Made by a program: the position numbers and the translations under genes
Assembly (NCBI GenBank): GCA_964016885.1
Contig: OZ024742.1
Coordinates: 69,688,001-69,752,000 of the forward strand
Source of the DNA: Eledone cirrhosa
Taxonomy: Eukaryota
Reading direction: 5' to 3'
DNA: 64,000 nt
Shown here: piece by piece, positions 31,401-61,071 of the stretch
Layout: each line of letters opens with the position of its first letter
Numbering within the stretch: position 1 is the first letter of the stretch
Notes under the pieces: model-generated
Databases searched by the model: none
The model's input: the letters and a program-made list of their open reading frames with translations, nothing else
Told to the model about the DNA's origin: nothing

Positions 31401-31584
31401 TATATATATATAAAGATTTATTTATTTATTTATTTATTTATCAAAATAACAGATTAAAGTTTAAGCAAAGAATCGCTGCTTTCACCTTTAACGAGATCTT
31501 CTGAAATACGAAATTCCAATAAATATACGTACACACACACACACAAACACCCCCGCCCCCACACATACACATGTATATATATTA

Positions 31585-32305
31585 GAATATTTCGTATTTC
31601 TAAAGAAATACGGTATGTGTATAGATAAACATTTAGAAAGCCGTAGTTATGCAAAAACACCGGAGGCTATCACCCCCTGGTAGCAGAAGCAAGGGGGACA
31701 ATCGTCGATCCATTTTGAACTTAATGAGTCTCATCAGGACGATCCCACCTACTCTTGCGACTGCTGGACTTGAAAAGGCGAGAATATATAGTTTTCTCGT
31801 CTGTGTAAATGATGTGATTAATCTCATTTGCATATGAAGCTGTATAAGTTGGCTCAGCATATAATAGGATTTAGCTTCGAGCATAGCTGTATGTATTGGA
31901 ATTTCGTATTTCACAAAGAAATACGGTATGTTTATAGATAAACATTTAGAAAGCCGTAGCTATGCTAAAACACGGCTTTCTAAATGTTTATCTACAAATA
32001 TACCGTCTATGAGATTAATCACCTCATTTGTACAGACGAGAAAACTATATATTCTCGCCTGTTTTCAGGTCCAGAAGTCGCAAGAGCGGGAGGGATCGTC
32101 CTGATGTGGACCAGTTGAGTTCTAAATACATCAACGATTGTCCCCCTTGCTTCTGCTGGACACCACCAGGGGGCGATAGCCTCCGGTGTTTTTGCATAGC
32201 TACGGCTTTCTAAATGTTTATCGATATACATTCCGTATCGCTTTAGAAATATGAAATTCCAATATATATCTGTATACAGCTGTGCTCGAAACTAAATCCT
32301 AATTC
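31585..32305. mobile_element. Nested tandem + inverted non-coding element with hammerhead remnants (mirror copy ~60100-60820)
   Basis: 31585-31830 is inverted at 32008-32270, with an inner hairpin at 31924-32006. Each unit holds atcgtc-ctgatg(a)...(g)aaa-tg.a-tc-(g)acgat. Confidence 0.75.
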
Positions 32306-33189
32306 TATTCTCTCTCTATATATATATAGTATAAACAAAGTTTCATACACTTAACATGTATGTGCGACCATTCGTTACGAGGTCTAGTGATTGCCACCAC
32401 TGTATATTGGAGGTAGCACGTGGACGGACATATGAACTACTATCCCCCGAAGATTTTTACTCCAAACTGTGAAGATCTTTATATTTGAAACAAGGGAGAT
32501 AAATCTAGCTTGAAATCTCTCCAAAGATAAATTTTTCAAGTTTTTCAAAGTATATTTTTGGTTTTTGTACCTTCCAATGATCAAGAGAGGTAACTCTCGA
32601 ATTTATCAGTTTGTAAATGGCTAAATTAATTAAAGTAAGTTATATAAACCAAAATATAAATAGCTACACACACACACACACACACACACACACACACACA
32701 CACACACACACACACACACACACACACACACACACATATATATATATATATATATATATATATATATATATATAACATTATAAAATATTTGAAAAAAAAA
32801 AGAAAATCCATAGATATTTACGCGCCCCATGCATGTATAAACTTGCACACATACATACGGATACATATACATGGCATATATGTATCTATGTATATATATA
32901 TATCTACTCAAATCTTGTGTCATGATTGGTGTTTCCCAAACTTAAGTTTGGAGATGTAAATGGTTGTATGTATGCGTGATCTTTGGTTGCAGTATGATGT
33001 TGCAACCTTAAGGTCTCCTTCAACAAGCCGTTAATTCGTGTACGTATGTGGTGCGCTCGTCGAGGGGTACTTGGGGTGTATAGTGTCATGGAGGGTTCAG
33101 GAGGTAGGTCTGGTGAAGTGGTGTCTTATGGTGTGGGCTTCCAGTTGGATTAAAAGATGGGTGTTTTGATGCAAGCATGATCTGAAGAT

Positions 33190-33575
33190 TACTGTCTTTG
33201 TATTGGGATATATATCCCGCTAGTATAAATCCTGTAAGACTCTGAATTTCTCCCTTACGCAGAGCGAGCATTTTTTGCTTCCAATTTTGTATGACATGGA
33301 CATTTCAAGCACTTTCCATGTGATTTCATGGGGTATTCTCTTTACTTTTAGCTGCCAGACACTTTTCGTGCTAGTGCTGTGGTGGTTTTCATGGTGGGAT
33401 ATCTAAATGAGGAAAGGTGCAAGAAGAATCTTTGTTTAAAACAGTCCTGTACAATATCCACATATTTTTCGCAGATCTCTGGCTTGGCGTTTGTGTATTT
33501 GCACTCTGCTTCGTATATTATGGACTTAATATCACCGTTTTGCTGTAATTGACAGTCGTCTTTCTTCTTGCAAGC
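33190..33575 (-). mobile_element. Penelope-like GIY-YIG remnant (mirror copy ~58797-59180, +)
   Basis: CKKKDDCQLQQNGDIKSIIYEAECK...FKQRF and KCSLCVREK-like pieces. Confidence 0.6.
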
Positions 33576-59800: not shown

Positions 59801-60657
59801 AAGGTACAAAAACAAAAAATAAACTTTGAAAAACTTGAAAAATTAATCTTTAGAGAGATTTCAAGCTAGATTTATCTCCCTTGTTTCAAATATAAAGATC
59901 TTCACAGTTTGGAGGAAAAATCTTCGGGGGATAGTAGTTCATATGTCCGTCCACGTCCTCGAATGAAGGGCCAGATTAAAAATGCTACCTCCAATATACA
60001 GTGGTGGCAATCACTAGACCTCGTAACGAATGGTCGCACATACATGTTAAGTGTATGAAACTTTGTTTATACTATATATATATAGAGAGAGAATATTATT
60101 AGGATTTAGCTTCGAGCATAGCTGTATACAGATATATATTGGAATTTCATATTTCTAAAGCGATACGGAATGTATATCGATAAACATTTAGAAAGCCGTA
60201 GCTATGCAAAAACACCGGAGGCTATCGCCCCCTGGTGGTGTCCAGCAGAAGCAAGGGGGACAATCGTTGATGCATTTAGAACTCAACTGGTCCTCATCAG
60301 AACGATGCCTCCCGCTCTTGCGACTGCTGGACCTGAAAACAGGCGAGAATATATAGTTTTCTCGTCTGTACAAATGAGGTGATTAATCTCATAGACGGTA
60401 TATTTGTAGATAAACATTTAGAAAGCCGTGTTTTAGCATAGCTACGGCTTTCTAAATGTTTATCTATAAACATACCGTATTTCTTTGTGAAATACGAAAT
60501 TCCAATACATACAGCTATGCTCGAAGCTAAATCCTATTATATGCTGAGCCAACTTATACAGCTTCATATGCAAATGAGATTAATCACATCATTTACACAG
60601 ACGAGAAAACTATATATTCTCGCCTTTTCAAGTCCAGCAGTCGCAAGAGTAGGTGGG

Positions 60658-60700
60658 ATCGTCCTGATGAGACTCGTTAAGTTCGAAATGGATCGACGAT
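60658..60700 (+). ncRNA. Minimal type-I hammerhead ribozyme (best-preserved of four copies)
   Basis: AUCGUC-CUGAUGA-GACUcguuaAGUUC-GAAA-UGGA-UC^-GACGAU with a perfect 6-bp stem I. Confidence 0.65.
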
Positions 60701-61071
60701 TGCCCCCCTTGCTTCTGTTGGACACCACCAGAGGGTGATAGCCTCCGGTGTTTTTGCATAACTACGGCTTTCTAAATGTTTATCTATACACATACCGTAT
60801 TTCTTTTGAAATACGAAATTCTAATATATATACATGTGTGTGTGTGTGTGAGTGTGGGTGGGTGTGTGGGTGGGGTGTGTGTGTGTGTGTGTGTGTGTGT
60901 GTGTGTGTGTGTGTTGGAATTTCGTATTTCAGAAGATCCCGTTAAAAGTGAAAGCAGCGATACTTTGCTTAAAATTTAATCTGTTATTTTGATAAATAAA
61001 TAAATATATATATATATATATATATATATATATATATATATATATATATATATATATATATATATATATAT

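What the first reader, a model, noticed from the sequence alone, without database searches (positions are those of the whole stretch)
31420..61005. ~29.6-kb palindrome duplicates the pore/anchor exons of the chemoreceptor tail-to-tail
Seen: both arms carry exons 3 and 4 with intact splice sites. Exon 4 appears identical and exon 3 differs by one Y>N change. Homology stops in (TA)n at ~31420/61005, and no second exon 1 or 2 lies inside the window. Established: in GR/OR channels the C-terminal region forms the tetramer anchor and pore, while ligand binding lies mainly in the earlier helices. Inference: a convergent paralog may start beyond the window, giving two receptors with separate ligand-binding exons but a homogenised assembly/pore module. 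Alternatively the right copy is an orphan. Read-through across the centre would form a kilobase-scale hairpin RNA covering the receptor's 3' exons (ADAR or siRNA substrate).
Basis: partly seen in the sequence, partly recalled or inferred. Interest (0 to 1): 0.8.

Follow-up and report, generated by a model that had tools for sequence, protein, structure and literature searches.

The report
Triplicated octopus taste-receptor-like splicing locus
The "palindrome" is the inner part of a roughly 100-kb inverted copy of a whole octopus gene of the insect taste-receptor family, at a locus where several long first exons likely splice onto one short shared tail, an arrangement known from insects that would give cephalopods a larger set of predicted chemical sensors than their gene counts suggest.

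Summary
The inverted repeat is in the assembly but mis-sized. The arms differ by about 2%, flank a 2.7-kb L1-like spacer (43596-46296), and do not end at the (TA)n. Homology resumes beyond two unrelated insertions and runs through exon 2 and exon 1, about 103 kb in all. The right copy is therefore a complete convergent paralog (open 446-aa frame), not an orphan. A third copy lies head-to-head upstream, giving an inverted triplication whose middle (window) gene is a mosaic of the other two. The gene is a GRL (7tm_7; OR/GR fold in an Octopus homolog; three phase-0 3' introns). Each copy has an array of long first exons with their own donors but no tail of their own. Octopus RefSeq isoforms and two cuttlefish models join different first exons to an identical tail, and a second locus in this genome has 16 first-exon places before one tail. 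This is the insect Gr39a/Gr28b layout; I did not find it described for molluscs. Exon identity needs only recent duplication plus constraint. Hairpin RNA is untested and unlikely. The read test of the junction was inconclusive; I put the duplication at about 80% real.

The parts
11577..12659 (+). Gene B first (variable) exon B1, 361 codons: N-tail and predicted S0-S5 plus most of S6; phase-0 donor GCT|GTACGT
17629..17700 (+). Gene B shared exon 2 (24 codons; predicted cytosolic end of S6 and start of S7a), phase 0
35790..35876 (+). Gene B shared exon 3 (29 codons; predicted S7a, beta-hairpin, start of S7b); derived Tyr codon at 35841-35843
37566..37664 (+). Gene B shared exon 4 (predicted pore helix S7b, motif SYGVIVFQT, stop)
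11552..43595 (+). Left arm of the tail-to-tail inverted duplication (whole gene B plus 3' flank)
28229..31393 (.). Left-only 3.2-kb insert in the shared (TA)n site; makes the false left boundary
22208..24773 (+). L1-like element in intron 2 shared by genes B and C, absent from gene A (RVT_1, zf-RVT)
40769..41787 (.). 1,019-bp tract identical in both arms (partner 47570-48588)
42233..43595 (-). 3' part of an L1-like element ending at the fold-back junction 43595|43596 (2-bp CC microhomology; junction 38-mer occurs once in G000)
43596..46296 (+). Unpaired 2.7-kb spacer: 5' part of the same L1-like family (ORF1-like piece, endonuclease), continuous with the right arm
46297..64000 (-). Right arm (gene C); continues beyond the window to window-equivalent 114854, where gene C exon 2 (G000:C3:69798937-69799008) and its open first exon C1 (C3:69801747-69802829; 22 of 361 residues differ from B1) lie
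51541..51639 (-). Gene C shared exon 4, identical to B
51785..55337 (-). Right-only Penelope-like element in intron 3 of gene C (open 880-aa frame, RVT_1 over cut-off, GIY-YIG just under)
56810..56896 (-). Gene C shared exon 3 (ancestral Asn codon)
61040..64000 (.). Start of the right-only 9.7-kb insert in the shared (TA)n site (to window-equivalent 70771); makes the false right boundary

Best explanation
The repeat is the inner part of a 103-kb tail-to-tail inverted duplication of a complete GRL-family gene, likely real DNA, within a three-copy locus where several long first exons likely splice in turn onto one three-exon tail to make predicted ligand-gated channel subunits with different pockets and a common pore. 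SHOWN in the assembly: three tails (A minus, B plus, C minus), each with an open first exon, and 14 first-exon places in arrays upstream of them, 9 open to a phase-0 GT donor. B is a mosaic, about 2% from A across its array and about 2% from C across its tail, while A's tail is 8-10% from both. INFERRED: A and C are older paralogs. B arose in one later episode that joined A's array to C's tail by exchange within the shared first exon or intron 1, and placed the product inverted between them by two fold-back junctions (ODIRA or DUP-TRP/INV-DUP-like), later widened to spacers of 13.3 and 2.7 kb. Patchy conversion and many retroelement insertions followed. INFERRED from homologs and insect precedent: each first exon has its own promoter and splices to the nearest downstream exon 2, so each locus yields several subunits that share S7a, the hairpin and S7b and could co-assemble as tetramers. 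The chemosensory role is predicted from family membership only.
For: Three copies of exons 2 and 3 in the whole assembly and three sets of exons 2-4 in 614 kb. Open spliced frames of 447, 446 and 446 aa. First-exon inventory and donors. Site-by-site polarity: B matches A up to about 16,900 and matches C from 17,230; C diverges upstream of 11,552. No N gap between C3:69637408 and 69982000, so both B/C arms and the junction lie in one gap-free stretch. The junction is a non-homologous join inside L1-like copies with 2-bp microhomology, found once in G000. Both arm alleles occur in read-derived contigs. The identical tract has about twice the word depth of the four listed low-depth spacer pieces (16-17, 11-13, 10-12 vs 8.2; 6.4 and 9.0; 4.1). 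O. bimaculoides LOC106874590 isoforms X1-X3 share an identical C-terminal 94 aa with different N-terminal parts. Sepia pharaonis CAE1281263.1 and CAE1281266.1 do the same from the homologous splice point, and unspliced Logan contigs break there. A second locus, G000:C13:13020164-13305323, has 16 first-exon places before one tail. Fold: Octopus homolog model pLDDT 76.7, Z 23-28 to 8 insect OR/GR chains, next unrelated 9.0. Precedent: PMC2204066 (part 1 of 5), PMC6175461 and PMC10766186 (passages).
Against: No transcript of this species was seen, so splicing and expression here are inferred from other species' gene models. No listed contig bridged the junction (other L1 copies swamped the table), and the 2:1 depth ratio has no genome-wide baseline. 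The roughly 2% distance of B to both neighbours is also what an alternative haplotype could show. The two N gaps lie at matching points of the A and B arms. pN/pS is about 1 between first-exon copies (1.04-1.20), which fits relaxed or decaying duplicates as well as diversification. Gene C carries a 54-kb intron 2 with several sense-strand L1-like elements and a Penelope-like element in intron 3, which could impair it. The tandem-duplication-then-inversion version predicted the L1 5' spacer at the head-to-head centre too, and it is not there. The last TM7 motif position is Thr, not F/L/M.
Confidence: 0.7

Rival explanations
1. Assembly artefact: the middle gene B is the second haplotype, mis-joined in inverted orientation between A and C, and the genome has only two genes. 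The alternative first-exon layout would still stand.
For: B is about 2% from A and about 2% from C, a plausible allelic distance. Gaps lie at matching points in the A and B arms. The junction was not seen among listed contigs and the depth has no baseline.
Against: B is a chimera of A's array and C's tail and is the allele of neither. It needs three separate wrong joins, one non-homologous with 2-bp microhomology. A hairpin read chimera would give identical arms, not arms 2% apart with kilobase indels (own knowledge). The four listed low-depth spacer pieces are at about 0.4-0.75 of arm depth, none at 1.0.
Confidence: 0.18
2. Old palindromes kept alike by arm-to-arm gene conversion: three copies date from the 8-10% split, and conversion near each centre keeps A like B and B like C.
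For: Patchy divergence: a 1,019-bp identical tract and a 3.9-kb block at 0.5% lie beside a 127-bp stretch with 12 changes. 14 C-only changes fall in 179 bp at the end of exon 1 against 8 in the preceding 946 bp.
Against: About 2% holds across 130 kb (A-B) and 31 kb (B-C) with no rise away from the centres, and B and C share intron-2 content absent from A (238 nt in A vs 18,089 in B). C's array is not orthologous to A's (C2 vs A2 68.6% nt). Conversion is not confined to exons 3-4.
Confidence: 0.12
3. The duplicate is real but functionally idle: gene C (or B) and most upstream first exons are decaying copies, and the locus makes one main receptor.
For: pN/pS is about 1 in first exons. 5 of 14 first-exon places are frameshifted or partial, and three open ones (A3, B3, A4) have lost the N-tail. 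Heavy retroelement load in C's introns.
Against: All three tails and 9 first exons keep open frames and donors. The tail is constrained between B and C. Several isoforms are annotated in O. bimaculoides and O. sinensis.
Confidence: 0.2
4. Read-through across the centre makes kilobase hairpin RNA that is edited or diced and regulates the receptor.
For: Geometry allows it: arms about 98% alike around a 2.7-kb loop.
Against: Poly(A) hexamers at +15, +273, +552, +560 (B) and +15, +273, +540 (C) after the stops. A B transcript must run about 9 kb past its stop to reach the other arm and about 14 kb to reach exon 4's complement. Mature B and C mRNAs are the same sense and do not pair.
Confidence: 0.07

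Closest known systems
Alternatively spliced insect GR loci: Drosophila Gr39a, Gr28b, Gr23a; Blattella Gr60a-m (PMC2204066 part 1 of 5; PMC6175461 passages)
   Same: Tandem long first exons encoding about six helices, each with its own start and GT donor, three short shared 3' exons after phase-0 introns, and gain, loss and decay of first exons.
   Different: Mollusc, not arthropod; about 13% or less identity to solved insect receptors. Here the shared tail is itself triplicated in alternating orientation, and the middle gene pairs one paralog's array with another's tail. Splicing is not shown in this species.
Animal GRLs / 7TMIC superfamily (PMC7746228, PMC5203786, PMC5850775 passages)
   Same: 7tm_7 domain, OR/GR fold, three phase-0 3' introns, TM7 motif in three of four positions; nearest non-cephalopod hits are gastropod and bivalve proteins.
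   Different: No ligand, expression site or channel activity is known for this clade in the papers I could search; one cnidarian GRL acts in development rather than chemosensation (PMC5850775 passage).
Inverted triplication by ODIRA / DUP-TRP/INV-DUP, and fold-back inverted duplication with a spacer (PMC10766186 passages; PMC3907307 abstract)
   Same: Direct-inverted-direct order, two inversion junctions with kilobase spacers, microhomology at a junction.
   Different: Flanking copies are older paralogs (8-10% apart), not identical segments; only first exon and intron 1 are truly triplicated at about 2.5%; the event is old enough for 2% divergence and tens of kb of insertions.
Octopus bimaculoides LOC106874590 and O. 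sinensis LOC118764548 (RefSeq 'uncharacterized')
   Same: Closest named relatives; same exon boundaries and multi-isoform layout.
   Different: About 50% identical in exon 1; their first exons form a clade apart from this genome's (100/98 support, midpoint-drawn tree of 21 rows). O. sinensis models show two alternative last exons.

Membership tests
GR/GRL (7TMIC) receptor | 7tm_7 (PF08395) domain | tested here: met
   Window exon 1 alone scores 26.2 bits vs cut-off 26.6. Paralogous first exons A3, B3, A4, A5 pass the cut-off. Full-length Octopus and Sepia homologs of this locus score 48-70 bits.
GR/GRL (7TMIC) receptor | Seven helices with split S7, OR/GR fold, intracellular N-terminus | tested here: met
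   Model of Octopus homolog P0001 (51% identical to exon 1) shows S0-S6, S7a, hairpin, S7b; Z 23.4-27.9 to 8 insect OR/GR chains, rmsd 3.5-4.2 over 314-366 residues. Spliced B has seven hydrophobic peaks with K/R-rich alternate loops on the N-terminal side. The window's own spliced protein was not folded.
GR/GRL (7TMIC) receptor | [quoted passage not shown] | tested here: met
   All three introns are phase 0 in A, B and C; the last falls inside predicted S7b. Criterion from PMC5203786 and PMC6175461 passages.
GR/GRL (7TMIC) receptor | TM7 motif (T/S)Yhhhhh(Q/K/E)(F/L/M) | tested here: inconclusive
   SYGVIVFQT: three of four fixed positions match, the last is Thr, also in Octopus and Sepia. 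PMC7746228 calls the motif diagnostic but not definitive.
GR/GRL (7TMIC) receptor | Tetrameric ligand-gated cation channel in sensory cells | not testable with these tools
   Needs expression and electrophysiology.
Gr39a-type alternatively spliced locus | Several long first exons in tandem, each with a start and a donor, without their own 3' exons | tested here: met
   14 first-exon places vs 3 tails at C3; 16 places vs 1 downstream tail at C13.
Gr39a-type alternatively spliced locus | Transcripts joining different first exons to the same tail | tested here: inconclusive
   Seen as gene models in O. bimaculoides, O. sinensis and S. pharaonis; the read support behind those models was not seen; no transcript of this species was available.
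Inverted triplication (ODIRA / DUP-TRP/INV-DUP) | Centre copy inverted between two direct copies, with two inversion junctions | tested here: met
   A(-) B(+) C(-); centres at C3:69562668-69575932 and window 43596-46296.
Inverted triplication (ODIRA / DUP-TRP/INV-DUP) | All three copies derive from one segment at one time; short inverted repeats kept at the junctions | tested here: not met
   A's tail is 8-10% from B and C, and C's array is unrelated to A's; only 2-bp microhomology at the window junction. It works like one but is not a textbook member.
Inverted triplication (ODIRA / DUP-TRP/INV-DUP) | Junction present on real molecules; raised copy number | tested here: inconclusive
   junction not among the listed pieces; arm:spacer depth about 2:1 without a baseline.
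Perfect DNA palindrome / hairpin-RNA locus | Near-identical arms with little or no spacer, transcribed through the centre | tested here: not met
   2.7-kb spacer, 1.9% mismatches, kilobase indels; transcription through the centre not testable.

The most novel reading that the evidence does not exclude
Coleoid cephalopods hide an unrecognised ionotropic chemoreceptor repertoire in a few GRL loci built as variable-first-exon/constant-tail clusters, present since the octopus-cuttlefish ancestor. In this octopod that is 9 open first exons at C3 and 12 at C13, annotated elsewhere as single 'uncharacterized' genes. Promoter choice would set each cell's ligand pocket while a shared tail allows co-assembly, and the inverted triplication re-wired a whole pocket array onto a different pore tail.
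Probability: 0.4. Interest if true: 0.75.

Novelty: new member of a known kind. Interest (0 to 1): 0.5.

Why it matters
Cephalopod chemosensation is described in the reviews I read through acetylcholine-receptor-derived chemotactile receptors (PMC12635824, PMC11526382 passages), and my searches found no account of cephalopod GRLs. If these arrays are spliced as in insects, octopods and cuttlefish have a second, lineage-specifically expanding ion-channel receptor set that gene counts miss. It also shows the Gr39a layout outside arthropods, either convergent on the ancestral phase-0 intron or very old. The question becomes directly testable with junction-spanning RNA reads and heterologous expression. 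The palindrome itself is an ordinary type of structural variant; its interest is that it made a chimeric receptor gene.

Tried and rejected
Orphan right copy: rejected, exons 1 and 2 lie 47-51 kb beyond the window. Boundary at the (TA)n: rejected. Junction as the natural 5' end of an L1, or part of a mobile composite: rejected; two other copies run on upstream of that point and the junction 38-mer occurs once. Tandem duplication plus clean inversion: its predicted second copy of the spacer was not found. Positive selection on first exons: not shown; codon counts looked skewed (22 non-synonymous, 2 synonymous codons) but site-corrected ratios were 1.04-1.20 for A1/B1/C1 and 2.3-3.0 for A3/B3 and A5/B5, none significant. 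Sequencing runs: no RNA holder listed. Laying 4 of the 7 listed runs on 40650-46290 did not show the junction among the listed pieces, and the RAD run gave mostly reads that fit other L1 copies. Single-sequence fold was unusable (pLDDT 39.8). Sequence search of solved structures gave 0 hits. Foldseek 'pdb' was not run. The MAFFT arm figure of 5.3% was set aside as a gap artefact. A weak profile search for tail exons in the first 200 kb of C13 found nothing; the tail lay further on. Earlier scan notes: none near this window or by sequence. Literature: nine searches, of which some aimed at cephalopod or mollusc GRLs and listed no paper on such a locus. Most subscription papers, including Robertson 2015 and cephalopod genome supplements, were not searchable and may bear on the novelty claim.
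Full report
OBSERVATION. Self-comparison of the window confirms a long inverted repeat, 31394-43595 against 46297-61039. The five in-window BLAST blocks have 201 mismatches in 10,619 columns, 1.9%. Both arms hold exons 3 and 4 with intact AG/GT sites. Exon 4 is identical, and exon 3 differs by one base at 35841/56845. 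It is not a true palindrome: 43596-46296 is unpaired, and the arms differ by a 3.55-kb Penelope-like insert and a 535-bp L1 piece.

THE BOUNDARY IS FALSE. The window is G000:C3:69688001-69752000. I fetched 550 kb around it (614 kb with the window). Both arms share the flank of one (TA)n site into which different sequences were inserted, 3.2 kb on the left and 9.7 kb on the right. Collinear blocks resume beyond them and run to left 11552 and right window-equivalent 114854: 13 blocks, 456 mismatches in 22,767 columns. The duplication spans about 103 kb and contains the whole gene. The right copy (gene C) has exon 2 at C3:69798937-69799008 and exon 1 at C3:69801747-69802829, and splices in silico to an open 446-aa frame. 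Its intron 2 is 54,040 nt against 18,089 in the window gene B.

A THIRD COPY. DNA searches of the whole assembly with exons 3 and 2 each gave three matches. The third, gene A, lies on the minus strand at C3:69455593-69462290 with a 238-nt intron 2. It is head-to-head with B through arms of about 110-130 kb around a 13.3-kb spacer. The order is A(-), B(+), C(-). Site-by-site, B follows A up to about window 16,900 and follows C from 17,230, while C departs from both upstream of 11,552. In the exon 3 and exon 4 regions, 28 of 33 and 27 of 35 variable sites are unique to A. So B carries A's upstream array and C's tail. Asn is in A and C, so the Tyr codon arose in B.

WHAT THE GENE IS. Exon 1 hits Pfam 7tm_7 just under the cut-off; four paralogous first exons and all six full-length homologs scanned pass it. 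The closest proteins are Octopus 'uncharacterized' products at about 50% identity, then cuttlefish, abalone, scallop, limpet and other bivalve proteins (10 clusters looked up), so the genome is an octopod by homology. A model of the O. bimaculoides homolog on a 40-row alignment (pLDDT 76.7) matches eight insect OR/GR chains at Z 23-28, with the next unrelated chain at 9.0. Mapped by alignment, exon 1 gives S0-S5 and most of S6, exon 2 the cytosolic end of S6 and start of S7a, exon 3 the rest of S7a and the hairpin (Asn/Tyr at its turn), and exon 4 the pore helix with SYGVIVFQT. All three introns are phase 0. These are the GR/GRL criteria given in PMC5203786 and PMC7746228 (passages).

THE MAIN FEATURE. 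The exon-1 search returned 14 places at this locus against three tails. Nine are open to a phase-0 GT donor with a methionine giving 298-361 residues (A1, A3, A4, A5, B1, B3, B5, C1, C2). A2 and B2 share a frameshift, and C3, B6 and a displaced copy are partial. O. bimaculoides LOC106874590 isoforms X1-X3 are 63-65% identical overall to X1 yet identical over the last 94 residues, from exactly this splice point. Two Sepia pharaonis models do the same, and unspliced contigs read into the intron there. A family search found a second cluster on C13: 16 first-exon places, 12 full-length and stop-free, followed by one set of three small exons. This is the layout of Drosophila Gr39a (PMC2204066, part 1 of 5 read) and Blattella Gr60a-m (PMC6175461, passages). 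A tree of 21 first-exon rows (C3 and B6 left out as too short) puts this genome's exons and the Octopus-type exons in separate clades (100/98), so the arrays turned over within each lineage. Splicing in this species is inferred, not seen.

HOW THE DUPLICATION LIKELY AROSE. The junction 43595|43596 joins the 3' part of an L1-like element to an inverted 5' part of the same family. Two other copies continue upstream of that point, the overlap is two bases, and the junction 38-mer occurs once in G000. The direct-inverted-direct order with spacer-bearing junctions resembles ODIRA-type inverted triplications (PMC10766186, passages) and fold-back duplications (PMC3907307, abstract). It is not a textbook case, because the flanking genes are 8-10% apart. 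My best reading is one later episode that joined A's array to C's tail through the shared first exon and set the product inverted between them, followed by patchy conversion and retroelement gain. The exact order of steps is unresolved; one version made a prediction that failed.

REAL OR ARTEFACT. Both B/C arms lie in a gap-free stretch. I laid 4 of 7 listed runs on 40650-46290; three are one sample and may be the assembly's source. Alleles of both arms appear. The identical 1,019-bp tract has word depths of 16-17, 11-13 and 10-12, against 8.2, 6.4 and 9.0, and 4.1 for the four listed low-depth spacer pieces; two further listed spacer pieces at depth 33-39 and one at 107 carry other letters, look like other L1 copies and were set aside. 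The junction itself was not among the listed pieces and there is no baseline, so the test is inconclusive. Against an artefact: B is a chimera needing three wrong joins, one of them non-homologous. For it: about 2% to both neighbours, and gaps at matching points of the A and B arms. I put the duplication at about 80% real.

The convergent paralog is confirmed in the assembly and the orphan rejected. B1 and C1 differ at 22 of 361 residues against 1 of 86 in the tail (p=0.10). By my mapping to the model, 15 of the 22 fall in the outer halves of S1, S2, S3, S5 and S6; this was not tested against a null, and nine lie in one tract of apparently older divergence. pN/pS is 1.2 and not significant. 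The near-identity of the tail (1 change in 258 nt, Poisson p=0.035 against 2%) needs only recent duplication and constraint. Hairpin RNA is geometrically possible, but poly(A) hexamers follow both stops closely and no RNA could be examined.

NOVELTY AND VERDICT. Both ingredients are known kinds: Gr39a-type splicing and inverted triplication. Seven searches aimed at cephalopod or mollusc GRLs listed no description of such a locus outside arthropods, but the library lacks most subscription papers and I saw no supplements. Other papers were seen as passages only: PMC5850775, PMC6150509, PMC11526382, PMC6408891. One earlier scan note on an arthropod locus (e1-7596670) names the same insect precedent and was not tested here. 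Verdict: observation partly confirmed, interpretation partly supported, new member of a known kind, interest 0.5. The value lies in the cephalopod variable-exon GRL clusters more than in the palindrome.

Noticed in passing
G000:C13:13020164-13305323 (L075-L111): Second GRL locus: 16 first-exon places on the plus strand (12 full-length and stop-free at 85-100% aa, 2 broken, 2 divergent) before one set of three small tail exons; homolog O. bimaculoides LOC106880719. A further exon-3-like piece at C13:12999846 suggests another GRL just upstream.
   Followed up: partly
   Followed up: partly
P0011, P0012, P0013, P0006 (O. sinensis LOC118764548): Isoforms use two different last exons (pore helix), so the tail also varies in that species.
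   Followed up: no
G000:C3:69065554-69066360 (L064): Displaced 5'-truncated copy of first exon A2/B2 (98%) about 390 kb from the locus, lacking their shared frameshift; no tail within the 50 kb fetched.
   Followed up: partly
window 52469-55114 (-) and window-equivalent 72233-74848: Penelope-like element with an open 880-aa frame, and an 89% relative 20 kb away, both only in gene C's introns.
   Followed up: partly
window 314-2890 (+): Frames resembling a Helitron Rep/PIF1 helicase (label recalled, not scanned).
   Followed up: no
window 10254-11379: About 1-kb low-complexity 21/60-bp tandem array directly upstream of exon B1.
   Followed up: no
window 27662-28156, 31575-32269, 60132-60831: Small self-inverted elements of about 500-700 bp in intron 2, MITE-like (label recalled).
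   Followed up: no
G000:C3:69578688-69585514: A 3.1-kb inverted pair at 99.3% near the head-to-head centre, 96-98% like the 3' flank of first exon B3.
   Followed up: no
P0014 (Argonauta hians): The GRL tail is annotated fused to a retroelement frame, probably a gene-model error; it shows the tail exists in argonauts.
   Followed up: no
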